Assembly (NCBI GenBank): GCA_020137815.1
Contig: CM035350.1
Coordinates: 3,472,001-3,536,000, forward strand
Origin: Hormiphora californensis
Taxonomy: Eukaryota > Animalia > Ctenophora
Direction: 5' to 3'
DNA length: 64,000 nucleotides
Under the pieces are notes generated by a model that was not told the DNA's origin, ran no database searches, and saw nothing but the letters and a program-made list of their open reading frames with translations. Both the position numbers and the translations under genes were made by a program. Each line of letters opens with the position of its first letter. Positions within the stretch are counted from its first letter, which is position 1. Of this stretch, positions 36 through 62,000 are shown one piece after another.

Positions 36-4545
<4,510 letters not shown>

Positions 4546-10049: not shown

Positions 10050-11042
10050 TTACACAGGAGCAACACCCTCAGATAACTCCTTCAAGGTGGCCATTAACTG
10101 GACCTTCTCTGCTGCACTACTCTTACTCCACGCTAAAGGTAAATGCTTCCCAACGACCCTCCTGTCCTGCCAAAATTCCCCATTTTTGGTGAGATCCACA
10201 GCTGCAGATCCGTCTGGTGCAACAGACAACCAAACAGCTGTATCAGCACCCTGCTGTGGTGTCCTCAGTTTGTCCTTCATCTTCTCGTAGAAATCAGGCA
10301 TGGCACTCCGTACAGCAGGGGTATCGGCCCATCCTGGGTGCATGGAACTAAACATAAGATCTGGGTATTTCCGGGCCCATTCCTCAACCATGATCACCTG
10401 CTGTCTCTTGTTCTGGGCGTACACCATCGTCCCATCAAACTTGCTCACCCGCTCTGACTGGAGGTCAGATAAGTCCAGTTTGTTGGTTAACATACCCCCC
10501 GAACTGACAGTGACCACTCTGCACCTCACCCCACTCTCTGCTGCTGTCCGCTGGAGGAGGGGAACCAGACCCTCTGTCAGGGTGTACGTTCCCAGTGTGT
10601 TGGTCGCAAAGTTACTTTCAAAACCCTCCCCAGTCACCTCCCTAGTGTTCACCATACACCCAGCATTGTTAACCAGCACGTGCAGTGCAGAGTGCTCCTT
10701 CATAAACTCTTCCGTGAATGTCTTCACTTTCCCAATCTGGGAGAGGTCTAAGACGTGGACATGAACCTCACTGTTACTTGTCTCCGCCACTATCTCATCC
10801 CTGACCTTCTCCGCGCTCACCTTGTTCCTACACACCATGTGAACAGTGCCACCCCTTTTGGCCACCTCCATGGCAGTCTCCCGTCCTATACCGCTGTTAC
10901 TACCCGTGATAAGGAAGTGACGGGAGGCGCAGTCCACTTGGAGGTCTGTGGGCTTGAAATCTTTAGCTGCTGCAGTATAGCCACTCTTTGTGTACTCAAG
11001 GAGGCCCTTAGCGAGCCACACTGTGTTTCTGTATATCGACAT
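10050..11042 (-). CDS. DHRS12: Dehydrogenase/reductase SDR family member 12
   Basis: Intronless 330 aa; MSIYRNTVWLAKGLLEYTKSGY N-terminus, TGSNSGIG, NNAG, YAQNK catalytic motif, MHPGWADTP. Confidence 0.93.
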   Translation of the reverse strand: MSIYRNTVWLAKGLLEYTKSGYTAAAKDFKPTDLQVDCASRHFLITGSNSGIGRETAMEVAKRGGTVHMVCRNKVSAEKVRDEIVAETSNSEVHVHVLDLSQIGKVKTFTEEFMKEHSALHVLVNNAGCMVNTREVTGEGFESNFATNTLGTYTLTEGLVPLLQRTAAESGVRCRVVTVSSGGMLTNKLDLSDLQSERVSKFDGTMVYAQNKRQQVIMVEEWARKYPDLMFSSMHPGWADTPAVRSAMPDFYEKMKDKLRTPQQGADTAVWLSVAPDGSAAVDLTKNGEFWQDRRVVGKHLPLAWSKSSAAEKVQLMATLKELSEGVAPV

Positions 11043-11308
11043 AGCTGCTAGGGAGAAGGGGAGAAATGTGAAATACTGAACACGATAATAGATCTATAAT
11101 AAAATCTATAATATTTATCTATAACAAAGGTCGACCATGAAAGTGTATAAAAGAACGGTATGAAGCAATGTATCCAAAAACAGAATAAGTGGTAAAAACT
11201 CTCTATCAGAGAGACATGACTATAACTACTATACTGGGTAATAAATAAGTGAACAAAAACATGTAAAAAGATGTCTCCCAAACAACTGTGTTACAACCCC
11301 ACTGATCC

Positions 11309-11811: not shown

Positions 11812-14800
11812 GGTGGTTCTCTGTTTCACTCGTAGTTAAAAAGCTAACAAGCAACGCACATCCCTTCAGACAAGCAAAAGCTCTCTCTCTCACACATACA
11901 CTGTTCAGAGCGCACTTTGTTTTGTTTGATAAGATGGTGCTGTCGTTGTTAGTGCTATGTTTCACGCTCCTTCAGAGCCCGGCCACCGTCTCGGGGTCTG
12001 AGGTGTGCTATAACAACTTCAATGGTCAGAATACCACCACTAATTGTACGGGATCGGAGTATTGCTGCAGGTAGGATTGTCACCTTGACCACACTCTGAT
12101 ATAGTACAGGGTGTCCCACTGTATAATCAGTGCTCCTTTTTCTATATTTGCACTACAAGTACCGCCGTCTAAGAAGAACTCACACGGCGTACCCTCCAAA
12201 TGGAGATATTATTAATACTATACCTAATGGCTAATAATAATGTAATATTGTGTTTTTGTTTCGTAGGAACGGCGAGAGTTACGCTATAAACCTTGAAGGA
12301 AAATGAGGTTTGCAGTACCGAGGAGAGCTGTGCCAATACCACTGATATTCCCACCAGGTAAAGAATTGTTGTCAGTACTTTAGTATCTCATAATATCGGT
12401 AACAGGGTACAATCACTTTCTATGAACCACCCCTAGAGCTGATGTAATGAATTAAAATGAAATCAAAACTCTGTCTACAGATCTGATCTCACACCATCTC
12501 TATACTCTTCAGTTGTCTAATTAGCGTTGATGGGGTAGAATCAATGTACGGGTGTGGTACAGGGGCGTACTGTTGCCACGAACAGGGCAGAGCTTTTTTC
12601 TACCGAGCTGTACAGTGGGAGGACGTGTGTGGCTTCCCAGGTAGGATTAACCACTCGACCGACAAACATTAGGAGTCTCTGTAGGACGACAATTCCAACC
12701 TGTTCCAACATAATGACGCAATTTGGTATTAGTACTTTTACCCAGGTAGTGGTTGTGGTCCAGTGTTTGAAGTTGATTGGAGTGTAGAGCGGGAGGTACA
12801 ATGCTACGACGAATGTGCTACCATATCCAAGATGACTGTTGATGGAATAGGCTACCTCGCTTTCCTCGAGACAGACGATCGTAAGTCGATTTGTATATCT
12901 AAGACTGTGTTTGTCGTGACTTGTTCAGATTGTATGACCTCTGTCAACTGTTGTTGTGGAACTAACGATCCCTTCCCCCTCACAGTGGAATGCTCGAAAG
13001 ACACGGTTAAGAAGTGTGGTAGCTACGAGGTATGTCTATCTACCAAGACCGAGCTGATGTTTGACAGCCCCAACGTGCTGGGAGGAACATCAGAATACCT
13101 CATGACCTTCACCTACCGGTCCTGTGCAGCGGCGGAGGTTGTCAGCGATCAAGATCTTTATTGTGGTTTACTGGTACAAGGGATAACTGAAGGATTGAAT
13201 TATGAAGGCATGACACTGTCTGATGTGGAGAGCTATTGTGCCTTCCAAGATGTCTGTACGGATGATTCTTGTGTGGCGGAGTCAGACAGGATTGGAGATT
13301 TTCCAGCGTGGGCCATTGTCCTCATTGTTCTCCTCATTCTAGCTGTGATCGTGCTCATTGTCGTCATTGCCTTTTGTTCCTGTAGAGACAGGGGGCAGGT
13401 TCAACCAGATCCCACACCAGTACCAATGGAGGAGATTATCGTCCAACAGGAGGACCCCCGAACCAGGAGGATTAGGGAACTGGAGGCCATGTTGACTGCA
13501 GCTATCAATGCTAGGGACATGGCTGACCTACAGCTGGCAACTGATGCCGTAGAAGAGGAACACATGGAGGGAGAAATGAGGGAGAAATACGACAAGGCAT
13601 GTGCTCTTCTGGAGCAGCTGCTGGCAAGGGATGCCGAGACCAAGAGAAGGGAGTTGGAGGAGGCGGAGAGGGAGGCTGCTGAAGCTAAACGGAAAATGGA
13701 AGAAGCTGAGGCTGAAGTTGAGAGGAGAAGGAAGGCGGAAGAGGAGGCCGCCAGGATAAGAGAGGCCGAAAGGTTGGCAGAGGAAGCACGGAAAAGATGG
13801 GCAAGGATCTGGCCGCGAGTTCAGGTTCTCAGAGCTCTAAATGCGGTAGATGCTGATGCTAAGGCTAAAGCTATGGAGGCAGCGAGGAGGGCAAGGGAAG
13901 AGGAAGAGAGGCAGAAGAGGGAGGAAGAAGAGAGGAGGGAGAGAGCACTAGCGTGTAAGAAAATGCTTCGTGGAGCGGTGAATGCGAACACGATTGAAAA
14001 ACTGGAGAACGCCATTAAACACACTGAAAGGGAAACCTTTCAGACTACCCTTATGGAACATGACGATGAGCTGAAGAAATTGTACGCCGAGGCAAGGGAG
14101 GCACTGGACAAACTAAGAAAGGAGGAAGAGGAGAAACGGCTGGCGGAGGAAAAGAGACTAGAAGAGGAACGAAGAATAGGGGAGGAGAAGAGACAGGCGG
14201 CCCTGGCACGGTTAGGAGAGATTGAGATCATTCTAAAGCGTGGTATCTCCGACAGAAACATTGACCTCCTAAGGAGCGGTATCAAGCAGGCCGATGACAA
14301 CTATCTCCAGAAGGATCTGTTCCCTGACTATGATAACGCTAAGGTCCTGTTAGAGCGACTCGAGAAGATTGAGAAGATAAAGAAGAACATCATGGAGCTG
14401 AAACGACCCCTGATCGCAGAGCTGAAGAGCATGGCAAACCCCCCGGTTCCCGTGATCAAGGCCATGACGGGAGCTTTCCTGCTGATGGGTGAGAAGGCAA
14501 GTTATCTGAAGGAATGGAACAACATCGTTATCCTGCTGAACAAGACAGGCCAGCTCAGTGTGAAGAGAAGAGTTCAGGAGTTAGAGATGGATAGGGTGAC
14601 TGATGAAATAGCTAAATCGGCCGAGGACACCATGTTTGGGTTGTCTTCTGACGAGGTATACGAGGCAAACCAAGCAGCCAGCCTATTCTACGACTGGGCT
14701 GACATGATTTGTTATGAGTACAAACAGCTAAAGAATGGAAAATAAATATGTAGTAAGCAAGTGGTAATTTATTTTGGTTTTTTATATTAGTATGTACTGA

Positions 14801-15793
14801 ACTTTATATGATATTTGTAACCTAGTGCCGACGATATGAGATATCAGTTATCACGGATCGGGATCATTTTCTGCGAGTTTTAGCTCAGGGACTCGTTTTT
14901 AGGGCCTGAACCCAAATCTCCGTGAAACTATGAGCAATACAATACTCGTTGTAGATGGATTTGATTATTGCTACCTTTTCCCCCAGTCCTCCCGGTTGAC
15001 AATTTTCGTGATCGTTTCCCGCAGACAAGTACAGTTGATTACAAACAATGCGTTTCAGTGTCTCCTCCTCTGAACCATCTATCACATCGCAGATTTCTGT
15101 AAAAGTGTAGGTCAGCCACCCATCCAATCATCGAAGTAAAATCAAATATTTCAAGTTGGGTGGGGACTGGGGAATTTTATACTTCACACTAATGGCAAGG
15201 AAGTTTTGCTTACTCGAGTGTGAAGGGTGAAGAGAGACCCCAGCTTTAAACTCAGGACGGCTGCACAAGTTGATCACTGGGTAACTACCCCAACAGGTAC
15301 CGGCACACCCAAAATCTACCGCTCCTCGAGCTTTAGCAAACGCAAGTGTTCGCTCCACATCAGGGATAAGCAGGGTGTTGTAAGGGTATGCTTTGATGAA
15401 ATCAACAAGACCTGGATCTGTAGGTGTAATGGAGCCACCCCGATAATAGTCAGGTAGCACCACCATATAGCCTGTAGGGAGAGAGGAGTTAGGAGAAAGG
15501 CAATGTATCTTAGCATACCAATATCAATTTAACAGACACAGAAACATTGAAAACACAATTTACAGTTTCCATAGATCTATCATGTAGGAAGCCGCACCTC
15601 TATCAGCTAGGAGGTCACAAATCTGTCTCGTCCTGCCTGCATCAAAACCGAAAATATCATAGTTCCATACAATGCACTTGTCGCCAGATCCAACGACATA
15701 AATTTCAAGGTCTTCAACTTTTTCAACGACCCCTTTGCAGGCGTATGCTGAGTTATCAAGGAAGCCATATCCGTTTTCCGGGCAGCACGCCAT
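11309..15793 (-). CDS. Dienelactone hydrolase / carboxymethylenebutenolidase-like
   Basis: Exons 15793-15598, 15471-15214, 15096-14975 and 11458-11309. Motifs DIFG, PDYYRG, G-T-C-W-G nucleophile and AGND; the last exon supplies the catalytic His (FPEMIHGWVTRGD...EFFAANLK*). Splice phases are consistent. Confidence 0.88.
11934..14745 (+). CDS. Type I membrane protein: signal peptide, Cys-rich ectodomain, TM, SAH/helical-repeat rod, C-terminal dynein-stalk MTBD-like domain
   Basis: Exons 11934-12070 (MVLSLLVLCFTLLQSPATVSG signal peptide), 12267-12357 (needs one A fewer at about 12301), 12513-12640 and 12746-14745. TM WAIVLIVLLILAVIVLIVVIAF at about 13309-13374; ELKSMANPP motif at 14419-14445. 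Confidence 0.8.
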
Positions 15794-16080
15794 GTTAAAA
15801 GCTTCTAAATTGGTATTGATTATGATTAAATGAGCTCAATATAAAATATTAATGCAACAGCTTCTATCCTCACTGCAAGAGGTTTTGGAAACCTCCAGTG
15901 ACGTCGCTCACCGTGCGTCCACGCATCCATGGACGCACACCTTTTTTCCGAGAAATTGAAAATTTTGTCAAATTCTGCACGCTGCAGCGTTTTGTACAAA
16001 ATGGGGTCGCTCACAAGACCACAACATTTCGCGTGCAAAAGTAAAAAAGGCGAAAGGAAACAGCGAAAAGGAAAAGAATT

Positions 16081-17700
16081 TTATTATTATTATTAAATCT
16101 AAAATGTATACATTGGATAAAATACAACATATACTGCCCCTTTTTGTGGGCTAAATTGATAGTCATAAGGTTCCTTTTGAAGTCTCTTTAGAGTACAAAT
16201 TACATGTAGCAGGTCAGCCACATTTAATTACCCCCCTGCTAACCCAGTATCGTCCATTCGGATTGTCTCGCCTCAGTCCTTTCACTGTATCAACAAGAGT
16301 TTTCCGCTCTCGCTGCTCCTCCGGTGTTAGGTCGGGGGAGAGAAACACCGAGGAGAATTTCTCTGAATCTCGGAGCTGTTTTGCTTTTCTTAGAAGTTGT
16401 AACAAAGTTTCCCTCCTTTCAAGTGTAACAATTACTGGTCTCGGTCGGTTATCAGTCTTTTCGCCAATACGCTTTGTAGAAGATATGACTGGTTTTTCAT
16501 TGAGCTCACCAAAGATATCCTGAACTTCATGCTCAGTAGCCCTTGCCGTAGTTTCTGGCAGCCCAAATATAACCAAATTCAATTTGCGATCAAGAGTTGC
16601 TTCTTCCGCGGTTGTACTTGGATGGGGTACAGTCGCTTTCTTCAATGCTGCTTGGAGGCGGGATGGTGCAATAGCTGCAGAGCAATTCTGTACAAGCACC
16701 TTGGAGTAGCCCTGCAAATGCTTCTGAACAGACTCTGACACTGAACTAAGTTTCCGACCTTGTACTTCAATCAAAGTATTTTGTGCTTCAATCAGCTTCT
16801 CTTGCAGTTCAATCCTTGATACCCGATGTTTGTCGATTTCTTCCTTAAAAGTGCCAAGCTCTTCTTGTACCTCCTTGAGCTTCTGATTACACTCCACTAG
16901 TTCCAGGCGTTCTTTCATTCGGGCAGTTGCATACAGACGTTTCTCCTTCATAACTGGTCCTATTTCTCTCACTATCCGAAAAATATGACGAGAGAGGTTC
17001 TCGGTGAAAGCCATGAAACGATCAACATTATACTTTCTCATTTCGGAGTCTTTCGGCAGTGCGTCCTCAATATACTGCTCAGGATCATCATACAAACTAG
17101 AATCCAATAACTTGGACAATACTCCATCAACCTGTTGTTCACTTGGTTGTTTGAGCCCGTTCTTGATATGAAAAACGTTCTCTACTGCACAACGAAGTTT
17201 TTCCATCATCGACAAATCCCAGCATTCCAGTGGATCGGCATCTGCATCAGAGGTATTAAGTTTCTCCGTCATAACTTCTGCCTGCCCCTACGGGCGGTCT
17301 CAACATCCTGAGGACATATCTCAATAAATAGTTTTACGTTGTAGTTGATGAAAGTTTGAAGGAAAAGAAGTTCCCCCCGCTAGCCAAGCGATGTATAGGA
17401 TGTGCCGTTGTACCACACGCCGGACCAAACTTTGTTTGCCTTAGTTGGGTAATCACTTAGTTGGTCACGCCAGGATGCCAGGATTACCAGCGCCGGGTCG
17501 AGAAGGCACTAAGGGCAAACAAGGGTAAGGTAAGGTAAGGTAAATTATGCACTTAATATCCCACTCAATAGTGAATATATACCCAGAAAAATGGTGCCAA
17601 CGCACTCTCTAAAGTATCACTTTCTCAAGTGGATAACATTGTCTTTATAAACTTAACGCAATTTTGCTCGCAACAACCGGAGCAACTTCAAAACACAACT
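16081..17700 (-). mobile_element. ORF1-only (non-autonomous) LINE-derived element with (TAA)n tail
   Basis: ORF1 is followed by about 120 nt of 3' UTR ending in TAATAATAATAATAA; no ORF2/RT. 5' boundary approximate. Confidence 0.55.
16214..17272 (-). CDS. Non-LTR retrotransposon ORF1-like protein (coiled coil + RRM/CTD)
   Basis: 352 aa intact ORF with a coiled coil followed by NLVIFGLPE...RIG...RPRPVIVTL...VFLSPDLTPEEQRERK, typical of CR1/L2-clade ORF1. Confidence 0.75.
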   Translation of the reverse strand: MTEKLNTSDADADPLECWDLSMMEKLRCAVENVFHIKNGLKQPSEQQVDGVLSKLLDSSLYDDPEQYIEDALPKDSEMRKYNVDRFMAFTENLSRHIFRIVREIGPVMKEKRLYATARMKERLELVECNQKLKEVQEELGTFKEEIDKHRVSRIELQEKLIEAQNTLIEVQGRKLSSVSESVQKHLQGYSKVLVQNCSAAIAPSRLQAALKKATVPHPSTTAEEATLDRKLNLVIFGLPETTARATEHEVQDIFGELNEKPVISSTKRIGEKTDNRPRPVIVTLERRETLLQLLRKAKQLRDSEKFSSVFLSPDLTPEEQRERKTLVDTVKGLRRDNPNGRYWVSRGVIKCG

Positions 17701-20498: not shown

Positions 20499-21412
20499 CC
20501 CGATGTTTACCGTGTTTTGAATAGTAAATTACATTCACAATATAAACTTTACACAATCTGTGAACAGACAATACGGACAGGTGAACTTACAGAATTTTGA
20601 TGGATGATTGGTACCGTGATGGTGTTGATGATGAGATGAGAGGTATATGCATTTCCAGTGGATCGGAGATGAAGATAAACAAAAACGATTGAACACAGAT
20701 AAGGGGTAGGACTGAATGTAGCACCAATATACTGTAAAATGTTCTAGAATTCTATGCGGATGGGACAGATAAGAACATTTGTTAGTTGTTACACGCGATA
20801 AGCGACTTAGTGCACCAAAACACAAGGATTGTCTCTGTAGTGTGGTGTATAGCAATGTCCGCTATATTGGGAGAGGTGGGTGGGGGAGGGCGGGTGGGGG
20901 TGGGGCGGTGGGTAATATTGGCCAAGAATGTAGCTGTAATTTAGTGATGAGACTAGGCCAGGCCCGAGAGACAGTTCAGTGGTAACTGGGAGTTCATGTG
21001 TGCTAGAAATGGGTATTTGAGACGGATTTAAGTTGCATTTTAGTGAGAGGAAGAGCCCTTATTGGTGTCTGAGACAAGCAAAAGTGAAACGAACTGCAAC
21101 GTAACGAACGAGTAATGATAAAATTAGTTCTTCGTGTTTGTTTTGACGGACGTTATAACGTAATTGAGTTCTAGTGTCTAGGTTTTTCGGACGTTTATAT
21201 ATATTTTATTAACATTTTAGAAAAGATTTAGCTTTTAGTTTCTGTTTCAGCTCTGTATTTTTCCCTATTTCTTTTGTCAGAAACAGTAGTAATGGTTTGA
21301 ACTTGAATTCAACGTGAGACAAGACCCAACTTCGAATACAGATCTGTGACCCCAAGGGCTGGGTGTTGACACAAAAAACAGCCTGATAACTCAAAACCCC
21401 CTTTTTTTAGCC

Positions 21413-22075
21413 ATGTCTCATGATCAGGTCGTTGGTGGGAGAGTTCGGGGTGTCACCGTCGTCAAGGCGATCGTCGTGGGCAACACCAGTGTCTATCTGG
21501 GTGGAAAACGGGATACAGATGGCCACACCCACACATGGACTGTCTACCTGAAGCCCTTCAAGAGTGAGAACATGAGTACCTACGTAAAGAAGGTGCACTT
21601 CAAACTGCACGACAGCTACTCCCAACCATTGCGAGTTCTCACCAAACCTCCCTACCGTGTCAGCGAGTCTGGTTGGGGCGAGTTTGAGATCATGGTCAAA
21701 GTGTTCTTCCACGATCCGAGTGAAAAACCGGTTACCTTTCTGCATCTCCTGAAGCTATTTCAAAATGAGACCGTTACAATGAAGGATAAAACTCTGATTT
21801 CAGAGAACTACGATGAAATTATCTTCACTGAGCCCACCTCGCTAATGTATCCTCTTCTTATCAACACTAAAGCTCTCGATCCTAGTTTGTCTCAACACCA
21901 CCAAAATTTCGAGGAAATCGAGAGAAAGACATTCACTGCAATTGTGGAGGCACGCCGCAAAATCAAAACTGAAATAGCGGAACTCAGCACGAGAATAAAA
22001 AATCAGAAGGAGTCTTATCAGATTATTAAACAGGAGGTGAAGGAGCTTGAGCAGGAACAAAACACTAAAACGTGA
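21413..22075 (+). CDS. YEATS4: YEATS domain-containing protein 4 (GAS41), copy 1
   Basis: [50 protein letters not shown] and a C-terminal coiled coil. Confidence 0.95.
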
Positions 22076-22732
22076 CGTAAATGATAAGTACAGCTACTGA
22101 GCCCCTACTGAGTACTGCATTTACACTGGCTGTGTTATTTTTATAAAAGCGAATGTCATTACCCATGCCATGACACCGCCATGGTTTTCAAAACAATGAA
22201 AATTTTATTGTTATTCTTATTGGGAGTCATACAACTCGTTTTTATCTGACAGCTTATATTTATCGATTGAAATACTCAACAGTGTGCAGTCTGTACACAC
22301 GTGTGGTAGGTCTTTCAGGTCTCTAATTACTATTTAATCATACGTTAATGGCATATATAGTCTAAGAGGAGAGTATCATGACGTGTTATGTGTGTAAACC
22401 AATCACTAACAATCGTTAAATGTGTCTTGGCATGGTATGTTTGGTATTGATAGATTGACACAGGACTTTGTTATTTCTTTCTGTATTGTGCGCAACATCC
22501 ATGCCATTGCGTTCGTGTATTGAGGTATACTGTTGTGTTTTTGAAAATTGCGAGTAGAAATCCTGTAAAGCTGTGATCTCCAATATATACTCTAGCTCTG
22601 CTGTCTTAATTCCCACCATTTCCTTGTAAACCACAGCACAGCACTGCTGCTGCTGCTTTGGTTCGTCGAGTTATACTCTCAGTAACTAATTTTGTATTTT
22701 ACCATAACCATCTTCCCTTTGCGTTTTAGTAC

Positions 22733-24334
22733 ATGGCACGGCTGGTAATCTTATTCCTGGTATTTGTGGGGTTCTCACTCGCCACCAAGAATGTCTTGGT
22801 AATCACATCAGGGGGCGGATCCCACATGTACCTCTCCGCTGATATCGCCACCATGATAGCAGACCGAGGTTACAACGTTACCCTGCTTGGCATGAGTCCA
22901 GATACAAGGGTTAACTACGATGACCGGCCCTTCACCCCTGTATACATTCGTGGTGTGGAGTACAACGAGAAGTTTACGAAAATAATGAACGATTGGGTAA
23001 AGGAGATCAGGGATTACCCAACAGAGTATGGATTCAACGCCCTTTTTTCTACTTCTATCCCGGATGACGTTCTGACACAGTTTATGTCTCCTACTGTCGA
23101 AGTCTTGCTCCCCTACTTCAATGGTCCCGAATTCCATAATCTCCTTGACTCAACTCCATTTAGTCTGATAGTCTTGGAAGATTCTGCTTTCGTGGGTGCC
23201 TGCGCTAAACTTGCATCAAGATTGGACATCCCTGTTGTTGGTGTTTCAGCAATTTCTGAATACACGTTTACCCGTGGTCGATTAAACCAGGGCATGCTTT
23301 TGAATAGTGAGCCCAATAACTTTAACACCATGATGGACGACACTCTACCCTCCTTGTCTGACCGTCTCTATACCCTGAAAATGATATTCGAGGTTGTGTA
23401 TACTCTGGTGGTTAAGTTTGCTAGTAAGGAGATGTTACAATACTACGAGAAAGCAGGGGTCACACAGGAGCAGGCAGATCGCTTACACGTGGCCAACTTT
23501 ATCTTCGACCATCCTGCCCTTGCTTACCCTTCTCTCAATGCTCCTTCCATGTTCAATTTGGGTTTCTTCCACTTGGACATGTACAAAGCACAGCCGCTAC
23601 CTGAGAAATACACAGAGTTCTTAGATGTGAACTGTGAGAGCGTGATTTACATGTCGTTTGGCTCCTACGCCGAGGATATCACCTTGTTCCCGTTCGTGGT
23701 TCCCATGCTGCGAGGGTTGGCACGAGTCCAGGGTCTCTGTCTGGTTCTGAAGACCAAACAGGACCTGGCCCAGCACGCCCCGGGACTCAAGATCCTCCAG
23801 GAGGGTTGGGTGCCCCAGAAGGACCTCTTGGCCAGTGGAAGAGTGGACATGTTCATCAGTCACTGCGGTAATAACGGCAGAATGGAGAGTCTCTTCTATG
23901 GGGTGCCTCTACTGTGTGTTCCCTTGTTCGGTGATCAGTACTACAATGCCCGCATGGTTCACAGAAGAAGGTTTGGCCGGCTCGTGCCCAAGGAACAAAT
24001 TACCGAGGATGCTTTCAAGGCCGAGTTGGAGAGTTTCCTGGCGGAGGCACCGGTATATCGAGATGAGATCAATGCAGCCGGCAACTATGTCAAGTCTGAC
24101 CCGACCTCAGGTAAGGAGGTCTTCCTGTTCATCTGTGAGCACCTTCTTGCAGGTGGAGACCTGGAGTTCCTGAAAAACAAGGTCTTGCTGGATCAGAGTG
24201 CTATATCTGTCTACAATTTGGATGTCCTGGCGGTGTTTTTCTTGGTGATGATAGCAGTTATTGGTGTTCTTCTTGGTGTCTCTTTCGCCTGTTGCAGATG
24301 CATCCTTCGGGTGACAAAGCTGAAAACAGATTAA
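22733..24334 (+). CDS. UDP-glucuronosyltransferase-family glycosyltransferase, copy 1
   Basis: Signal peptide, GSH, UGT signature WVPQKDLL..FISHCGNNG..E....GVP...PLFGDQ..NA, C-terminal TM and KxKxx ER-retrieval signal (KLKTD). Confidence 0.95.
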   Translation: MARLVILFLVFVGFSLATKNVLVITSGGGSHMYLSADIATMIADRGYNVTLLGMSPDTRVNYDDRPFTPVYIRGVEYNEKFTKIMNDWVKEIRDYPTEYGFNALFSTSIPDDVLTQFMSPTVEVLLPYFNGPEFHNLLDSTPFSLIVLEDSAFVGACAKLASRLDIPVVGVSAISEYTFTRGRLNQGMLLNSEPNNFNTMMDDTLPSLSDRLYTLKMIFEVVYTLVVKFASKEMLQYYEKAGVTQEQADRLHVANFIFDHPALAYPSLNAPSMFNLGFFHLDMYKAQPLPEKYTEFLDVNCESVIYMSFGSYAEDITLFPFVVPMLRGLARVQGLCLVLKTKQDLAQHAPGLKILQEGWVPQKDLLASGRVDMFISHCGNNGRMESLFYGVPLLCVPLFGDQYYNARMVHRRRFGRLVPKEQITEDAFKAELESFLAEAPVYRDEINAAGNYVKSDPTSGKEVFLFICEHLLAGGDLEFLKNKVLLDQSAISVYNLDVLAVFFLVMIAVIGVLLGVSFACCRCILRVTKLKTD

Positions 24335-24918
24335 AAACTAACTGAACCTCTCGATATCTGTATCGTGATTAAAACAATTTAGAATATATATTGTTACTGG
24401 AATGATAAATTGCATGTGTTTTAACCTTTCATTTACTTGCTCAGATCTCTTTATTCATAGTTTACTTGTAGTGTTTTATATAACAGATCGTTTTCACACA
24501 GAGATTATTGTGTTTATGTTTAAATGTAAATCAGCTGCTGAAGAATGTTTATAAGAAATTACTTTTTGATAAATTATGTGTCGTGGCTTTGTCTCGTAGC
24601 GATTAATGTTTCTTTCGAAGAAAGAAACAGAATAGGTTCACAAATCATTGAAAAAATCTTTCAATCAAGGAGTCATACATGTGAAAGGTCACGAGACCGT
24701 CTCTCATCATTCCCAAACTAATTTACTATGTTCCTGAAGGGGCGGTGTTTGTTTAGGAACTATAAACAAACAGGTCTAACTTGTTTTACCAGTTCTCCCC
24801 AGCCCTATCTCCTTATTTCTCATCTTGCATTTTCACTTGCTTCTACGTGAATCATGTCTTTCTTTAAGCATTCATTTGATCCCAATTATAATCCTTATAA
24901 TTCAATGTGTGTCAGGAC

Positions 24919-25180
24919 ATGAGTGGACAGTTTTCGGGATGCCGGTCTCTATCCGATAGTGATCCTGAGCTATGGGGTCTGATAAAACAGGAGAAAGAAC
25001 GCCAAAAAAACTGCCTAGAGCTCATTGCCAGTGAGAATTTTACATCTCGAGCAGTCATGGAAGCGGTTAGTGTTGTACAGTTACTATATAGAAATAGAGC
25101 TGTCTTGTAGCTGCAGTCTGTCTCTATACAATGTACTGAAACGATATCCCCTCTGTCCCTGCAGGCGGGATCGTGTCTGA
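24919..25180 (+). pseudogene. Truncated SHMT 5' fragment (exon 1 + start of exon 2) created by the duplication
   Basis: MSGQFSG...[17 protein letters not shown] then cut at the duplication junction. Confidence 0.85.
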
Positions 25181-25665
25181 ATGTAGCTGTAATTTAGTGA
25201 TGAGACTAGGCCAGGCCCGAGAGACAGTTCAGTGGTAACTGGGAGTTCATGTGTGCTAGAAATGGGTATTTGAGACGGATTTAAGTTGCATTTTAGTGAG
25301 AGGAAGAGCCCTTATTGGTGTCTGAGACAAGCAAAAGTGAAACGAACTGCAACGTAACGAACGAGTAATGATAAAATTAGTTCTTCGTGTTTGTTTTGAC
25401 GGACGTTATAACGTAATTGAGTTCTAGTGTCTAGGTTTTTCGGACGTTTATATATATTTTATTAACATTTTAGAAAAGATTTAGCTTTTAGTTTCTGTTT
25501 CAGCTCTGTATTTTTCCCTATTTCTTTTGTCAGAAACAGTAGTAATGGTTTGAACTTGAATTCAACGTGAGACAAGACCCAACTTCGAATACAGATCTGT
25601 GACCCCAAGGGCTGGGTGTTGACACAAAAAACAGCCTGATAACTCAAAACCCCCTTTTTTTAGCC

Positions 25666-26328
25666 ATGTCTCATGATCAGGTCGTTGGTGGGAGAGTTCG
25701 GGGTGTCACCGTCGTCAAGGCGATCGTCGTGGGCAACACCAGTGTCTATCTGGGTGGAAAACGGGATACAGATGGCCACACCCACACATGGACTGTCTAC
25801 CTGAAGCCCTTCAAGAGTGAGAACATGAGTACCTACGTAAAGAAGGTGCACTTCAAACTGCACGACAGCTACTCCCAACCATTGCGAGTTCTCACCAAAC
25901 CTCCCTACCGTGTCAGCGAGTCTGGTTGGGGCGAGTTTGAGATCATGGTCAAAGTGTTCTTCCACGATCCGAGTGAAAAACCGGTTACCTTTCTGCATCT
26001 CCTGAAGCTATTTCAAAATGAGACCGTTACAATGAAGGATAAAACTCTGATTTCAGAGAACTACGATGAAATTATCTTCACTGAGCCCACCTCGCTAATG
26101 TATCCTCTTCTTATCAACACTAAAGCTCTCGATCCTAGTTTGTCTCAACACCACCAAAATTTCGAGGAAATCGAGAGAAAGACATTCACTGCAATTGTGG
26201 AGGCACGCCGCAAAATCAAAACTGAAATAGCGGAACTCAGCACGAGAATAAAAAATCAGAAGGAGTCTTATCAGATTATTAAACAGGAGGTGAAGGAGCT
26301 TGAGCAGGAACAAAACACTAAAACGTGA
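25666..26328 (+). CDS. YEATS4: YEATS4, copy 2
   Basis: Protein identical to copy 1. Confidence 0.9.
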
Positions 26329-26985
26329 CGTAAATGATAAGTACAGCTACTGAGCCCCTACTGAGTACTGCATTTACACTGGCTGTGTTATTTTTATAAA
26401 AGCGAATGTCATTACCCATGCCATGACACCGCCATGGTTTTCAAAACAATGAAAATTTTATTGTTATTCTTATTGGGAGTCATACAACTCGTTTTTATCT
26501 GACAGCTTATATTTATCGATTGAAATACTCAACAGTGTGCAGTCTGTACACACGTGTGGTAGGTCTTTCAGGTCTCTAATTACTATTTAATCATACGTTA
26601 ATGGCATATATAGTCTAAGAGGAGAGTATCATGACGTGTTATGTGTGTAAACCAATCACTAACAATCGTTAAATGTGTCTTGGCATGGTATGTTTGGTAT
26701 TGATAGATTGACACAGGACTTTGTTATTTCTTTCTGTATTGTGCGCAACATCCATGCCATTGCGTTCGTGTATTGAGGTATACTGTTGTGTTTTTGAAAA
26801 TTGCGAGTAGAAATCCTGTAAAGCTGTGATCTCCAATATATACTCTAGCTCTGCTGTCTTAATTCCCACCATTTCCTTGTAAACCACAGCACAGCACTGC
26901 TGCTGCTGCTTTGGTTCGTCGAGTTATACTCTCAGTAACTAATTTTGTATTTTACCATAACCATCTTCCCTTTGCGTTTTAGTAC

Positions 26986-28587
26986 ATGGCACGGCTGGTA
27001 ATCTTATTCCTGGTATTTGTGGGGTTCTCACTCGCCACCAAGAATGTCTTGGTAATCACATCAGGGGGCGGATCCCACATGTACCTCTCCGCTGATATCG
27101 CCACCATGATAGCAGACCGAGGTTACAACGTTACCCTGCTTGGCATGAGTCCAGATACAAGGGTTAACTACGATGACCGGCCCTTCACCCCTGTATACAT
27201 TCGTGGTGTGGAGTACAACGAGAAGTTTACGAAAATAATGAACGATTGGGTAAAGGAGATCAGGGATTACCCAACAGAGTATGGATTCAACGCCCTTTTT
27301 TCTACTTCTATCCCGGATGACGTTCTGACACAGTTTATGTCTCCTACTGTCGAAGTCTTGCTCCCCTACTTCAATGGTCCCGAATTCCATAATCTCCTTG
27401 ACTCAACTCCATTTAGTCTGATAGTCTTGGAAGATTCTGCTTTCGTGGGTGCCTGCGCTAAACTTGCATCAAGATTGGACATCCCTGTTGTTGGTGTTTC
27501 AGCAATTTCTGAATACACGTTTACCCGTGGTCGATTAAACCAGGGCATGCTTTTGAATAGTGAGCCCAATAACTTTAACACCATGATGGACGACACTCTA
27601 CCCTCCTTGTCTGACCGTCTCTATACCCTGAAAATGATATTCGAGGTTGTGTATACTCTGGTGGTTAAGTTTGCTAGTAAGGAGATGTTACAATACTACG
27701 AGAAAGCAGGGGTCACACAGGAGCAGGCAGATCGCTTACACGTGGCCAACTTTATCTTCGACCATCCTGCCCTTGCTTACCCTTCTCTCAATGCTCCTTC
27801 CATGTTCAATTTGGGTTTCTTCCACTTGGACATGTACAAAGCACAGCCGCTACCTGAGAAATACACAGAGTTCTTAGATGTGAACTGTGAGAGCGTGATT
27901 TACATGTCGTTTGGCTCCTACGCCGAGGATATCACCTTGTTCCCGTTCGTGGTTCCCATGCTGCGAGGGTTGGCACGAGTCCAGGGTCTCTGTCTGGTTC
28001 TGAAGACCAAACAGGACCTGGCCCAGCACGCCCCGGGACTCAAGATCCTCCAGGAGGGTTGGGTGCCCCAGAAGGACCTCTTGGCCAGTGGAAGAGTGGA
28101 CATGTTCATCAGTCACTGCGGTAATAACGGCAGAATGGAGAGTCTCTTCTATGGGGTGCCTCTACTGTGTGTTCCCTTGTTCGGTGATCAGTACTACAAT
28201 GCCCGCATGGTTCACAGAAGAAGGTTTGGCCGGCTCGTGCCCAAGGAACAAATTACCGAGGATGCTTTCAAGGCCGAGTTGGAGAGTTTCCTGGCGGAGG
28301 CACCGGTATATCGAGATGAGATCAATGCAGCCGGCAACTATGTCAAGTCTGACCCGACCTCAGGTAAGGAGGTCTTCCTGTTCATCTGTGAGCACCTTCT
28401 TGCAGGTGGAGACCTGGAGTTCCTGAAAAACAAGGTCTTGCTGGATCAGAGTGCTATATCTGTCTACAATTTGGATGTCCTGGCGGTGTTTTTCTTGGTG
28501 ATGATAGCAGTTATTGGTGTTCTTCTTGGTGTCTCTTTCGCCTGTTGCAGATGCATCCTTCGGGTGACAAAGCTGAAAACAGATTAA
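26986..28587 (+). CDS. UGT, copy 2
   Basis: Protein identical to copy 1. Confidence 0.9.
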   Translation: MARLVILFLVFVGFSLATKNVLVITSGGGSHMYLSADIATMIADRGYNVTLLGMSPDTRVNYDDRPFTPVYIRGVEYNEKFTKIMNDWVKEIRDYPTEYGFNALFSTSIPDDVLTQFMSPTVEVLLPYFNGPEFHNLLDSTPFSLIVLEDSAFVGACAKLASRLDIPVVGVSAISEYTFTRGRLNQGMLLNSEPNNFNTMMDDTLPSLSDRLYTLKMIFEVVYTLVVKFASKEMLQYYEKAGVTQEQADRLHVANFIFDHPALAYPSLNAPSMFNLGFFHLDMYKAQPLPEKYTEFLDVNCESVIYMSFGSYAEDITLFPFVVPMLRGLARVQGLCLVLKTKQDLAQHAPGLKILQEGWVPQKDLLASGRVDMFISHCGNNGRMESLFYGVPLLCVPLFGDQYYNARMVHRRRFGRLVPKEQITEDAFKAELESFLAEAPVYRDEINAAGNYVKSDPTSGKEVFLFICEHLLAGGDLEFLKNKVLLDQSAISVYNLDVLAVFFLVMIAVIGVLLGVSFACCRCILRVTKLKTD

Positions 28588-29171
28588 AAACTAACTGAAC
28601 CTCTCGATATCTGTATCGTGATTAAAACAATTTAGAATATATATTGTTACTGGAATGATAAATTGCATGTGTTTTAACCTTTCATTTACTTGCTCAGATC
28701 TCTTTATTCATAGTTTACTTGTAGTGTTTTATATAACAGATCGTTTTCACACAGAGATTATTGTGTTTATGTTTAAATGTAAATCAGCTGCTGAAGAATG
28801 TTTATAAGAAATTACTTTTTGATAAATTATGTGTCGTGGCTTTGTCTCGTAGCGATTAATGTTTCTTTCGAAGAAAGAAACAGAATAGGTTCACAAATCA
28901 TTGAAAAAATCTTTCAATCAAGGAGTCATACATGTGAAAGGTCACGAGACCGTCTCTCATCATTCCCAAACTAATTTACTATGTTCCTGAAGGGGCGGTG
29001 TTTGTTTAGGAACTATAAACAAACAGGTCTAACTTGTTTTACCAGTTCTCCCCAGCCCTATCTCCTTATTTCTCATCTTGCATTTTCACTTGCTTCTACG
29101 TGAATCATGTCTTTCTTTAAGCATTCATTTGATCCCAATTATAATCCTTATAATTCAATGTGTGTCAGGAC

Positions 29172-31526
29172 ATGAGTGGACAGTTTTCGGGATGCCGGTC
29201 TCTATCCGATAGTGATCCTGAGCTATGGGGTCTGATAAAACAGGAGAAAGAACGCCAAAAAAACTGCCTAGAGCTCATTGCCAGTGAGAATTTTACATCT
29301 CGAGCAGTCATGGAAGCGGTTAGTGTTGTACAGTTACTATATAGAAATAGAGCTGTCTTGTAGCTGCAGTCTGTCTCTATACAATGTACTGAAACGATAT
29401 CCCCTCTGTCCCTGCAGGCGGGATCGTGTCTGACGAACAAGTACAGTGAAGGTATGCCTGGTGCGAGGTACTATGGAGGTAACGAGTATATAGACCAGAT
29501 TGAGAACCTGTGTGTCAAGAGGGCCCTCGAGTTATATGGGCTAAGAGAGGAGGAGTGGGGTGCCAATGTACAGCCGTACAGTGGGTCTCCAGCCAACTTT
29601 GCTGTATACACAGGTACTAGAGGGGGCCGGAGGGGGGGTTAGCGGTAAATGTTGCCTTGATTTGGACACAATTTTTATATGGGTGAGTTATAACCAAAAC
29701 TGTAAAAATTGTGTCCAAATCAAGGCAACATTTACTAGAGGGGCGGGGGGGTACTAGCAACATTTTTGTAATCCTTGCTACCCAGAAATTTCGAATTACA
29801 CCAAAGTGTACTAAGCATCTATTCACCATCGTGTTCTACGAGAATTCCAATAAATTCTCTGACCATATTAGGTATACGCCTGATCTCCATGAATATATCC
29901 TTGTTCCATCCATAACTTCCCAGCTCTTCTGAAACCCCATGATAGGGTGATGGGGTTGGATCTCCCTGACGGTGGGCACCTCACACATGGATACATGACG
30001 GACAAGAAGAGGATATCAGCTACCTCAATCTACTTTGAGAGCATGCCATACAGTGTCAACACTGCCACTGGGATTATTGATTACGATAGACTTGAGGATC
30101 AGGTATTATATGCAGCTGTAAAATTTTAATTTTTATACCGGACTTCTGACGAAAGGTTTTTGCATGGTATCAAGGTCCGATACATCGTGTTTTTTACCTG
30201 TCGATCGAATCCAAGAATTAGGGATCTGCGGTGGAATCGCTGTTTCTGTTGATTCTTTCTTTAAACAAAATTTCCCCAGGTCCGTTCCTTTCGTCCCAGA
30301 ATGATAATTGCCGGTGCAAGTGCCTACTCCCGGGAGATTGACTACGCTCGAATGAGATCCATTGCAGACATCACGGGAGCCTGGTTGGTTGCTGATATGG
30401 CCCACATTGGTGGCATTGTGGCAGCTGGGATTATCTCATCTCCATTCCCTCACTGCGACGTAGTTACTACCACAACTCACAAGACCCTCCGGGGTAGCCG
30501 GTCTGGAATTATTTTCTACCGACGCGGAGAGAGGGAGGTACCGGGAAGGGGGCTGGTGAAGTATAATATCGAGGGAGATATCAATTTCGCGGTGTTTCCT
30601 GCACTTCAGGGTGGTCCCCACAATCATATCATCGCTGCTGTGGCCACCGCCCTCAAGGAAGCCAATACCCCCGAGTTTAGGGAATACCAAAAACAGGTAC
30701 AGCTACAGTTTTTTGTTATGTTCTAACCCTCCCTTTACAGTGCGGGGCGCCCGAAACACAGTCTAGCCAGGCAAACAGTTTTGTGAAGTTGTCATTATAT
30801 CGTTTCTGTAGAACAGATTCAACAATATCACCTTGTTGCAATATCAATTGCTGTTGAAATATCAATACCAACTATCCTGCAGGTGTGTGTGAACGCCAAG
30901 GTGCTGTGTAAGGCCCTACAGGAGCGTGGTTACAAAGTAGTTAGTGATGGGACTGATAACCACATTGTGCTGATGGACCTCCGACCACTTGGTATCGATG
31001 GTAACCGCGTGGACTCTGTCCTCGATTTGTGTAATATTACGGGAAATAAGAACACTGTACCGGGGGACAAGAATGCTATAAGACCCGGAGGTATCAGATT
31101 GGGGAGCAGTGCCCTCACTACCAGGACTCTCAGTGAGGCTGATTTCGAGCAGGTCGCTGAGTACATCCACCTGGGTTAGTATTTCATTCTCGTCGCAACA
31201 ACGGGACCGAGCCGACAGATGAAAAAAAACCCATAAAACCATAGATATTTTTAGAGTGAAAGTTTGGTCGAGATATTACTACTAAGTACCCACTTTTCTT
31301 CTTGCTTTGCTCTTTATCCTCTCTCTCTCTTCCCCATTTGAACAATGTTCTTGCAGGTGTAACTATTGCCCGAGAAGTGCAGAGTAAACAAGAGGGAAAG
31401 CTACTCAAGGAATTCAAGGAAATTCTCAAGACTGATCAGGGAATTAATGATAAAATTCAAACGCTCAAGGGACAAGTTTCCAAGTTTGCTGCATCATTCC
31501 CAATGCCCGGCCATGATGAATATTAA
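29172..31526 (+). CDS. SHMT: Serine hydroxymethyltransferase (no N-terminal mitochondrial presequence; cytosolic-type)
   Basis: Exons 29172-29318, 29418-29613, 29924-30102, 30280-30696, 30883-31174, 31357-31526. Motifs [39 protein letters not shown] (PLP Lys), QGGPH, NKN. Confidence 0.96.
29644..29735. repeat. Palindromic insertion in SHMT intron 2
   Basis: GTAAATGTTGCCTTGATTTGGACACAATTTT ... AAAATTGTGTCCAAATCAAGGCAACATTT. Confidence 0.8.
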
Positions 31527-61075: not shown

Positions 61076-62000
61076 TATAGAGAGAGAGAGAACACACTAG
61101 ACACTGATAGCAATAGCTCGATTAGTTTATTAGATACATGGCACTCTCAACTATCTTCCCTATTCTCTATCCTTTTCTCTCACTCTTTTCTCTAGCGATT
61201 GATATGCTTTCCTGTAGTATTTTTCTTCCCTTGAACAACTCTACTCACTGCTTCTCTCACTTTTATCTCCCTCTCTTCATCTCCCCCTCTTCAACCGCTC
61301 TCTTCCTCTCTTGGACTCGACGTCACACAAAACAAGATGTTCATCAACTTTTTGAACTTTTTGAATTTGTGTACATTAGAGTGCCTTCTATGGACGTCAT
61401 ATTGGATTTTCTCTATTGGATGTTCTACAATTATCTATGAAGGAGTTGCCACACTTCAAGTTGAAGTGTGGCAACTCCTTCATAGATTGTAGTTCAACTC
61501 CATCATTGAACACGAGACCCACTTTCTTCTGGATTGCCCTATGGAGATCTGAGATCCCGCCTGCTACAAGAATCCTCCCCAAAGTTAGCGATAGTTCGTC
61601 TAAGAGGCCTTTTCAAACTCTCCCAAAGCAACGCCCCCTTAGCTCCCCATTCCTTTCCTCCCCAGTGTGTTTACCCTCACCTGCCTCCATGCTATTTTGA
61701 GTCTCTATTTATTTTTTATTGATCTCCTCCAACCTTTTTATAGTTTTAGAAGTTTTCCATAGTTTCATCTGATGATTCTCGTTTTTAAGAAAGCTTCAGT
61801 AAGAAAACTTTAAAATGTAAATCACACAACTCAGAGAAATCCCATCAAAATAAGAAACCCCTAAGTTTCTTTTTTAGGTTTCTCGTTCTATGTCCTATGC
61901 ATACATTCTTTGCCTAATTGTTCGACCCTATAATAATGAGGGTTAGAATTCCTAACATATTATGTAACAACAAACAAATGTTGTAACTTACAATTAAACT

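What the first reader, a model, noticed from the sequence alone, without database searches (positions are those of the whole stretch)
11934..14745. Single-pass membrane protein ending in a motor-less dynein microtubule-binding domain: candidate membrane-to-microtubule (cilium) tether or receptor
Seen: spliced model with signal peptide, about 300-aa Cys-rich ectodomain, one TM (about 13309-13374), about 330 aa of helical rod, then IMELKRPLIAELKSMANPPVPVIKAMTGAFLLMGE..EWNNIVILL..RVQELEMDRVTDEI..SSDEVYEANQAASLFYDW (about 14390-14730). Established: the dynein stalk MTBD reads roughly I-KK..L.EVRSMANPP.AVK...E.IC.LLGE....W..I......F....I.....YE.VN.AS.A...V.W, and this segment matches it helix by helix. 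No AAA ring is present. Inference: the protein links an extracellular ligand or neighbouring membrane to microtubules across the bilayer. If the host is a ctenophore, the membrane-doublet links of comb-plate cilia or mechanosensory cilia are obvious candidate sites. From memory, similar stand-alone MTBD-like tails occur in uncharacterised invertebrate soluble proteins; the receptor-like membrane architecture is the unusual part.
Basis: partly seen in the sequence, partly recalled or inferred. Interest (0 to 1): 0.9.

Follow-up and report, generated by a model that had tools for sequence, protein, structure and literature searches.

The report
Membrane protein with motor-less dynein tip
A gene, likely from a comb jelly, encodes a predicted single-pass membrane protein whose inner end is a diverged copy of the small domain that dynein motors use to grip microtubules, with no motor attached, so it likely ties the cell or cilium membrane to microtubules; that binding is untested and two of dynein's key contact residues are changed.

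Summary
The architecture is real: five exons give a signal-peptide-like start, a 22-Cys ectodomain, one membrane span, a ~335-aa helical rod and a C-terminal domain. That domain is a true dynein MTBD homologue: family profile E 1e-11 to DNAH6; model pLDDT 97; Z 17.8, 1.6 Å over 125 residues to the dynein stalk tip. There is no AAA ring. A Pleurobrachia bachei orthologue and an intron-less contig of a relative support the full-length form. Exon 2 is one base out of frame in this assembly. The tail belongs to a mobile motor-less module (820 representatives) that also caps hillarin/KY, EF-hand, CLCA, EGF, TNFR and MS4A-type proteins of many invertebrates. 45 of 144 such hosts carry a membrane span or myristoylation-type start, so the receptor design is not confined to ctenophores. 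Microtubule binding is unshown: H1 contacts are kept, but R3337 is Val and R3382 is Glu. The comb-plate location has no support. This scan found motor-less MTBDs before on other DNA (14 notes seen), none as a single-pass protein. Ten paper searches found no description. New variant of a known kind; interest 0.66.

The parts
11934..12070 (+). Exon 1: start codon, signal-peptide-like hydrophobic stretch (about 22 aa), start of first 6-Cys module
   Evidence: 34/38 identical to P0001; covered by one contig of run X1 (11902-12052; that run is only guessed to be RNA). SignalP not available, hydropathy only
12267..12357 (+). Exon 2 (91 nt as assembled, one base out of frame near 12289-12305; assembly slip, allele or skipped exon)
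   Evidence: matches P0001 49-65 in one frame and 57-77 in the next; frame arithmetic
12513..12640 (+). Exon 3: second 6-Cys module
   Evidence: 39/42 identical to P0001 79-120; RNA contig X3 joins it to exon 4
12746..12880 (+). Exon 4: start of the membrane-proximal 10-Cys unit
   Evidence: 41/44 identical to P0001 122-165; junction
12986..13308 (+). Exon 5, extracellular part: rest of the 10-Cys unit (spacing recalls a Ly6/uPAR three-finger fold; recalled, untested)
   Evidence: Cys positions; no Pfam, PDB or Atlas hit
13309..13374 (+). Single predicted transmembrane helix
   Evidence: Kyte-Doolittle 19-mer mean about 3.9; present in 12 of 13 close homologues
13477..13620 (+). Copy of the ~50-aa helical repeat that accompanies the MTBD-like module
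   Evidence: HMM built from A2, 20.8 bits; P0010 and P0011 carry five copies
13375..14208 (+). Cytosolic E/K/R-rich helical rod (51% E+K+R over P0001 377-570)
13786..13848 (+). Conserved basic amphipathic W-x3-W/H motif with 1-5-8-14 spacing; candidate Ca2+/calmodulin site (pattern recalled, binding untested)
   Evidence: present in 13 of 13 close homologues
14209..14364 (+). Helical repeat directly before the MTBD-like domain; its last helix runs on as the CC1-like helix
   Evidence: 41.7 bits; helices 13-26, 29-41, 51-73 in the model; at least one copy in 98 of 160 family proteins
14389..14742 (+). Dynein MTBD-like domain: H1-H6 without flap, plus a ~20-residue CC2 stub ending at the C-terminus
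   Evidence: sequence; model and fold search
14743..14745 (+). Stop codon; RNA contigs run on into the 3' UTR to about 14940

Best explanation
This is a predicted single-pass (type I) membrane protein whose cytosolic tip is a co-opted dynein microtubule-binding domain with no motor, and it likely acts as an ATP-independent tether that holds a membrane, probably of a cilium or the cell cortex, at a set distance from microtubules. Step 1 (shown in sequence): Cys-rich part, one hydrophobic span, rod and MTBD homologue lie in one protein. Step 2 (predicted): the tail folds as H1-H6 between a CC1-like helix and a short CC2 stub. Step 3 (inferred): it binds the tubulin lattice through the kept H1 contacts and a conserved basic patch at H3-H4, probably more weakly or at another angle than dynein because the H3 and H6 arginines are gone. 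With no AAA ring and no long stalk, affinity could not be cycled by ATP. Step 4 (inferred): the ~335-aa rod is a spacer of at most ~50 nm, and its conserved W-x3-W motif may let Ca2+/calmodulin switch the link. Step 5 (speculative): the fast-evolving ectodomain binds a neighbouring membrane or matrix.
For: Homology: family profile to DNAH6 E 1.3e-11; all 51 hits at E<=0.01 are dynein-sized chains or MTBD constructs. Fold: pLDDT 97, pTM 0.88; the 6 Foldseek hits at E<=0.001 are dynein entries; Z 17.8, 1.6 Å, 125 residues to 5ayh. Selection: the MTBD-like part is the most conserved region (P0001 vs P0002: 85/114, against rod 143/273 and ectodomain 65/242). H1 contacts are kept in the 12 close-family rows of A2: K3299 site R in 11, E3304 site E in 12, R3306 site K/R in 12. 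The basic patch at model positions 123, 130 and 132 is K/R in 12 of 12, and in 68, 60 and 71 of the 83 other rows. A basic patch on the DNAH7 MTBD is proposed to bind the tubulin tail (PMC6629372, passages). The module recurs beside membrane anchors: 18 of 144 more distant hosts have a hydrophobic span and 27 an MGxxxS/T start (internal-Met background 4 of 1701). A chain of the Toxoplasma intraconoidal microtubule, inferred to be ICMAP2, has a similar fold (Z 9.5-9.8) and sits on the lattice with 8-nm period.
Against: No binding, localisation or tissue data. Mouse R3382 (H6, an alpha-tubulin contact; PMC4987762, passages) aligns to E in 11 and D in 1 of 12 close-family rows; R3337 (H3) aligns to V in 11; K3334 mostly to N. 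The core is net -3 in the window protein (range -4 to +1 in the 12 close rows) against a median of +4 in the wider family. The window's own tail does not hit Pfam MT; 6 of 11 family members do, best E 9e-5. A radial-spoke chain (7jtk_C, Z 11.8) has a similar fold, so the fold may also serve away from the lattice. In this assembly the five-exon frame is broken in exon 2.
Confidence: 0.5

Rival explanations
1. The tail kept the MTBD fold but no longer binds the microtubule lattice. It would be a protein-docking module on a receptor or adhesion protein, recruiting another partner (for example a leucine-rich-repeat protein, as the outer-arm gamma MTBD does with LC1) or only touching acidic tubulin tails.
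For: Charge reversal at R3382 and loss of R3337; net acidic core in this subfamily. The strongest conservation includes an inserted G-K-T-G-K-type loop absent from dyneins. A similar fold occurs in a radial-spoke chain. 6l4p shows an MTBD in complex with LC1 (entry title).
Against: H1, the main switch helix, is the best-kept surface (E82 97%, K/R84 92% of 95 rows). The wider family is net basic.
Confidence: 0.3
2. It is the trans-membrane part of the comb-plate interciliary bridge: ectodomains would pair between neighbouring cilia while the rod and MTBD tip anchor on doublets 3 and 8, alongside CTENO64 and CTENO189.
For: Compartmenting lamellae run from doublets 3 and 8 to the membrane and continue as extracellular interciliary bridges, whose parts are largely unknown (10.1101/2022.03.27.486007, first part and passages). 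The topology fits. The wider module is closest to axonemal DNAH6/DNAH2. Several diverged paralogues exist.
Against: No expression or localisation evidence. It is not CTENO189 (1582 aa, metalloprotease and death domains). The word 'transmembrane' does not occur in that preprint's main text. Similar membrane forms occur in animals without comb plates.
Confidence: 0.12
3. In this organism the gene is a broken copy (exon-2 frameshift), although the family is functional elsewhere.
For: The five-exon model stops at codon 59.
Against: The other four exons are intact and 89-94% identical to P0001. RNA-library contigs cover parts of the gene and splice intron 3. The shift lies beside an A run. Exon skipping keeps the frame. 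The window also holds a 100% identical 4,255-bp duplication, which hints at assembly errors.
Confidence: 0.08

Closest known systems
Dynein heavy-chain stalk tip / MTBD (Pfam PF12777 MT; PDB 5ayh, 3err, 6rzb; by profile closest to flap-less axonemal DNAH6 and DNAH2)
   Same: Six-helix H1-H6 fold between CC1 and CC2; E-x-K/R-S-x3-PP, LLGE, W and C-terminal W motifs; H1 basic and acidic contacts
   Different: No AAA ring, linker or long antiparallel stalk; CC2 ends after ~20 residues; 3-residue basic insertion after H3; R3337 is V and R3382 is E; sits on a membrane protein
Toxoplasma ICMAP2 globular domain (PDB 9ya2 chain L; assignment inferred from residue range 1207-1457 and 162 modelled residues)
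   Same: Motor-less protein whose domain aligns to the model (Z 9.5-9.8, ~3 Å, 125-126 residues) and sits on a microtubule with 8-nm period
   Different: Not described as a membrane protein in the passages read; binds as a dimer between protofilaments; no sequence match in the rows shown; Z is below the ~13 guide for helical folds; neither paper mentions dynein for it
Chlamydomonas radial-spoke chain 7jtk_C, residues 434-590 (RSP2 from recall; the primary papers were not held)
   Same: Motor-less ciliary protein with a region that aligns to the model (Z 11.8, 5.0 Å, 152 residues)
   Different: Part of a spoke complex, not a membrane protein; no sequence match in the rows shown; whether the papers call it MTBD-like could not be checked
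Invertebrate hillarin/KY-like, EF-hand, CLCA-like, EGF, TNFR and MS4A-like proteins carrying the same unannotated tail
   Same: Same repeat-plus-MTBD module near the C-terminus (135 of 144 within 80 aa of the end), often with a membrane anchor
   Different: Different N-terminal domains; databases name them for those domains or leave them uncharacterised; more basic core than this subfamily
Comb-plate lamella proteins CTENO64 and CTENO189
   Same: Ctenophore proteins in a structure that links doublets to the ciliary membrane
   Different: CTENO189 is 1582 aa with metalloprotease and death domains; no evidence of homology or co-location; CTENO64's sequence was not compared

Membership tests
Dynein heavy chain | AAA+ ring with Walker A motifs, ~4000-4600 aa | tested here: not met
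   Protein is ~750 aa and ends at 14745; no GxxxxGK[ST] in any of 160 family proteins; neighbours are a short-chain dehydrogenase and a dienelactone hydrolase
Dynein heavy chain | Long antiparallel CC1/CC2 stalk with alpha/beta registry switch | tested here: not met
   CC2-like helix is model residues 166-188 and ends at the C-terminus; the CC1-like helix is the last helix of a three-helix repeat
Dynein MTBD domain (PF12777 core) | Sequence homology over H1-H6 | tested here: met
   Profile E 1.3e-11 to DNAH6 spanning H1 to CC2; single sequence E 3e-4; PF12777 hit in 6 of 11 members, not in the window's own sequence, and above the curated cut-off in family member P0023
Dynein MTBD domain (PF12777 core) | Six-helix fold | tested here: met
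   Predicted model pLDDT 97; Z 17.8, 1.6 Å over 125 residues
Dynein MTBD domain (PF12777 core) | Basic tubulin-contact residues on H1, H3 and H6 | tested here: inconclusive
   H1 kept (K76, R77, E82, K84); H3 K3334 and R3337 lost; H6 R3382 is E; extra basic patch after H3
Dynein MTBD domain (PF12777 core) | Binds the tubulin intradimer interface | not testable with these tools
   Needs co-sedimentation or cryo-EM; no complex prediction was run
Type I single-pass membrane protein | Cleavable signal peptide | tested here: inconclusive
   Hydrophobic N-terminus in the window, P0002, P0010 and the L002 frame; no SignalP available; P0001's start is weakly hydrophobic
Type I single-pass membrane protein | One transmembrane helix between a Cys-rich, glycosylatable part and a charged part | tested here: met
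   One 22-aa span in 12 of 13 homologues; 22 Cys and 3 N-glycosylation sequons after the leader
Ly6/uPAR three-finger domain (membrane-proximal ectodomain unit) | 10-Cys pattern and three-finger fold | tested here: inconclusive
   10 Cys with similar spacing (pattern recalled); no Pfam, PDB or Atlas hit; not folded
Ca2+/calmodulin 1-5-8-14 target motif | Basic amphipathic helix with hydrophobic anchors at 1, 5, 8, 14 that binds calmodulin | tested here: inconclusive
   Spacing conserved in 13 of 13; motif definition recalled; an internal Pro in 11 of 13 is atypical; binding untested
Comb-plate compartmenting lamella component | Comb-cell expression and localisation at doublets 3 and 8 | not testable with these tools
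   Only environmental contigs were available; the candidate table of the preprint is in supplements not seen

The most novel reading that the evidence does not exclude
Ciliated invertebrates, from sponges and ctenophores to amphioxus, repeatedly bolted dynein's microtubule grip onto receptors, CLCA and MS4A proteins and myristoylated scaffolds, forming an unrecognised class of ATP-independent membrane-to-microtubule couplers. In ctenophores this receptor is the trans-membrane link of the comb-plate interciliary bridge and is switched by Ca2+/calmodulin.
Probability: 0.15. Interest if true: 0.9.

Novelty: new variant of a known kind. Interest (0 to 1): 0.66.

Why it matters
The dynein MTBD is treated as a part of the motor. 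A type-I membrane protein ending in one would be a direct, ATP-free link from outside the cell to the microtubule lattice. It gives concrete candidates for membrane-to-doublet links in cilia, including the ctenophore interciliary bridge, whose parts are largely unidentified. It also puts a structural label on the unannotated tails of hundreds of invertebrate proteins. A ~190-residue fragment is enough to test the central claim. If the tail does not bind microtubules, it still shows the MTBD fold reused as a general docking module.

Tried and rejected
Dynein fragment or pseudogene remnant: rejected (stop at 14745, unrelated neighbours, strong conservation). Chance coiled-coil match: rejected (profile match spans H1-H6 and the fold superposes at 1.6 Å). 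Gene-model fusion: rejected for TM-rod-MTBD (one exon, one frame) and unlikely for the ectodomain (P0001 colinear; L002 holds an 894-codon intron-less frame with leader, ectodomain, TM and tail). Single-sequence fold gave pLDDT 49 and was not used. The Atlas top hit (0.97, PF12777 in 50% of members) had a low recognition value and is weak evidence. Ectodomain searches found nothing: Pfam, PDB, homologue search returned only P0001, Atlas. Exon-2 frame unresolved: no cover in four runs, no exact match in metagenome contigs. The tree is a quick tree on 120 columns without a dynein outgroup, 2 of 160 rows left out; many 'other' rows are fragments, so its count of at least 9 changes of the TM label overstates independent origins; only 2 of the 16 rows labelled ctenophore are named as such. 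Papers: 10 searches listed no paper describing a motor-less MTBD on a membrane protein; only listings were seen for most hits, and most subscription papers are not held. The two 2021 radial-spoke structure papers were not held. No complex with tubulin was predicted. No whole genome was held, so paralogue number in this species is unknown.
Full report
1. Observation. The window has a stop-free + frame at 12733-14745 that holds Cys-rich sequence, a 22-residue hydrophobic span (13309-13374), an E/K/R-rich rod and the quoted C-terminal segment. Splice-site listing gives five exons, 11934-12070, 12267-12357, 12513-12640, 12746-12880 and 12986-14745, with GT..AG introns. The homologue search returned 13 proteins among 657 candidates. 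The best, P0001 (751 aa), is a Pleurobrachia bachei EukProt entry and is colinear with every exon: 34/38, two frames in exon 2, 39/42, 41/44 and 548/585 identical, with intron 4 absent. P0004 is named as Bolinopsis microptera. The host is therefore inferred to be a Pleurobrachia-like ctenophore. Contigs from four environmental runs (three on record as RNA, two studies) cover scattered pieces of the gene and its 3' UTR, and one joins across intron 3. They do not span the gene.

2. One defect. Exon 2 is 91 nt as assembled, so the five-exon model stops at codon 59. P0001 matches the exon first in one frame and then in the next. Skipping the exon or using a weak acceptor at 12316 would keep the frame. 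No contig covered the exon and an exact pattern scan found nothing. A perfectly identical 4,255-bp duplication elsewhere in the window suggests an imperfect assembly. An assembly slip or allele is the most likely cause (inference).

3. The full architecture is conserved. 12 of the 13 close homologues have the membrane span; P0004 lacks it and looks N-terminally truncated. P0002 and P0010 start with hydrophobic leaders. Locus L002, a 3,025-nt contig, holds an intron-less 894-codon frame containing P0011, preceded by a leader-like stretch and followed by an AT-rich tail with AATAAA, so leader, ectodomain, TM and tail occur on one transcript-like sequence. The ectodomain has 22 Cys arranged as two 6-Cys modules and a 10-Cys unit. 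It matched nothing in Pfam, PDB, the protein collection or the Atlas and is the least conserved part (65/242 between P0001 and P0002, against 85/114 for the tail).

4. The tail is a dynein MTBD homologue. The last 151 aa alone hit 20 PDB sequences at E<=10, 19 of them dynein heavy chains or MTBD constructs (one labelled only AAA+, 4191 aa), best E 3e-4. An 11-sequence profile gave 1.5e-5 and a 95-sequence profile 1.3e-11 to DNAH6, with alignments running from CC1 through H6 into CC2. Pfam MT is hit by 6 of 11 family members but not by the window's own tail. AlphaFold2 with the 95-row alignment gave pLDDT 97 and pTM 0.88. Foldseek's 6 hits at E<=0.001 are dynein entries. VIA-align gives Z 17.8, 1.6 Å over 125 residues to 5ayh. 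The model shows a three-helix repeat whose last helix serves as CC1, six short helices without a flap, and a CC2 stub that ends at the C-terminus. There is no Walker A motif, and the flanking genes are a short-chain dehydrogenase and a dienelactone hydrolase.

5. Does it still bind microtubules? Dynein contacts tubulin through H1, H3 and H6 (PMC6629372, passages); K3298, K3299, R3337 and R3382 are named contacts. I numbered mouse residues from the alignments printed. In the 12 close-family rows of A2, the K3299, E3304 and R3306 sites are kept (R in 11, E in 12, K/R in 12), K3298 in 7. R3337 is V in 11, K3334 is mostly N, and R3382 is E in 11 and D in 1. The core is net -3 in the window protein and +4 at the median of the 83 other rows. 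In its favour, a basic patch after H3 (model 123, 126, 130-132) is conserved across the whole family, and DNAH7 is proposed to hold the beta-tubulin tail in a basic patch; whether the two patches coincide was not checked. Binding is plausible but not shown, and would differ from dynein's.

6. It is one case of a mobile module. The tail profile found 820 representatives at E<=0.001 and 270 at 1e-10 among 1.84 billion; I examined the best 150. None of the 160 proteins held has a Walker A motif, the longest is 1,861 aa, and 135 of 144 more distant hosts carry the domain within 80 aa of the C-terminus. Pfam scans of 79 of them show hillarin/KY-type proteins (35), and EF-hand, VWA/CLCA, EGF, TNFR, ephrin-receptor-like, CD20, SH3 and LRR hosts. 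Of 30 looked up, named ones come from Branchiostoma, Styela, Ciona, Saccoglossus, Adineta, Lingula, Pinctada, Plakobranchus, Acropora, Sycon and Oscarella; none of the named ones is a vertebrate, insect or nematode, but the sample is small. 18 of 144 have a hydrophobic span before the domain and 27 an MGxxxS/T start (background 4 of 1701), 45 in all. CLCA-like membrane forms recur in two amphioxus species and their hybrids, so they are unlikely to be single bad gene models. In a quick tree the 16 close-family rows plus P0018 group together (support 87) beside short TM proteins of unnamed origin (support 93), while other TM hosts are scattered (limits under Tried and rejected). A ~50-aa helical repeat accompanies the domain in 98 of 160 proteins.

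7. Mechanism. Most likely the protein is a static tether: ectodomain outside, one span, a spacer of at most ~50 nm (335 aa), and an MTBD that grips microtubules without an ATP cycle. A W-x3-W/H basic amphipathic motif in the rod is present in 13 of 13 close homologues and fits the recalled 1-5-8-14 calmodulin pattern; EF-hand hosts of the same module exist in sponges. Ca2+ control is therefore a testable guess. Confidence 0.5; the main rival, a docking module that no longer binds the lattice, gets 0.3.

8. What is known. Two non-dynein solved chains resemble the model: 9ya2_L (Z 9.5-9.8) and 7jtk_C (Z 11.8), both below the ~13 guide for helical folds. 9ya2_L is inferred to be ICMAP2, whose globular domain is about 10% of 1,678 aa and sits on the intraconoidal microtubule at 8-nm period (PMC12819142, passages). 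That paper mentions dynein only in its references, and an earlier one found no recognisable domain in ICMAP2 (PMC10774369, passages). 7jtk_C is RSP2 from recall; PMC10774353 (passages) says Chlamydomonas RSP2 has a long C-terminal part reaching the head surface. For comb plates I read the first sixth and passages of the CTENO189 preprint; its supplement listing 21 candidates was not seen and may bear on location. PMC11184263 passages added nothing on this gene; of PMC2111786 the search matched only a reference title; PMC13406575 and PMC10886578 were used for reference ids. Ten searches listed no description of this protein or module.

9. Earlier scan notes. 14 distinct notes on motor-less MTBDs in other genomes were shown; a look-up for single-pass forms, one for hillarin/KY forms and one by sequence returned nothing. 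These are unchecked AI notes and are not counted as support.

10. Verdict. Observation confirmed with a frameshift caveat; homology and fold established; membrane-microtubule tethering likely but untested; comb-plate role unsupported. New variant of a known kind, interest 0.66.

Noticed in passing
window 20926-25180 and 25179-29433: A 4,255-bp stretch with a YEATS-domain ORF and a UDP-glycosyltransferase ORF is repeated in tandem with 100% identity: assembly artefact or very recent duplication.
   Followed up: partly
PDB 9ya2 chain L (not in window): The Toxoplasma intraconoidal-microtubule chain inferred to be ICMAP2 aligns to the MTBD-like model (Z 9.5-9.8). Its papers report no recognisable domain, so ICMAP2 may hold an unnoticed dynein-MTBD fold.
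   Followed up: partly
PDB 7jtk chain C 434-590; 9e5c_2e; 9fqr_Xl (not in window): Further axonemal chains align to the model (Z 11.8, 7.3, 9.8); identities not confirmed.
   Followed up: no
proteins P0016-P0159: 35 hillarin/KY-type proteins (KY Ig-like domains, many with a transglutaminase-like core) carry the MTBD-like domain; 19 of 35 begin MGxxxS/T; P0016 has three copies of the domain.
   Followed up: partly
P0062, P0142 (Branchiostoma): CLCA-like membrane proteins of amphioxus carry the MTBD-like domain on their cytosolic tail.
   Followed up: partly
P0018, P0031, P0051, P0071, P0074, P0147: Short TM proteins (178-303 aa) of unknown source have the MTBD-like domain almost directly after the membrane span and branch next to this subfamily; a minimal version of the design.
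   Followed up: partly
window 12881-12985: Intron 4 is 105 nt, in frame and stop-free, so retention would insert 35 residues with five Cys into the ectodomain; absent from P0001.
   Followed up: no
window 10050-11093(-), 15128-15835(-), 3640-4545(+), 30265-31179(+), 61998-63014(+): Ordinary neighbours: short-chain dehydrogenase, dienelactone hydrolase, CUB-domain gene, serine hydroxymethyltransferase, rhodopsin-family GPCR.
   Followed up: no
window 16214-17287(-): 357-aa ORF without a Pfam hit; coiled coil followed by a basic RRM-like part, resembling a LINE ORF1-type protein (recalled, untested).
   Followed up: no
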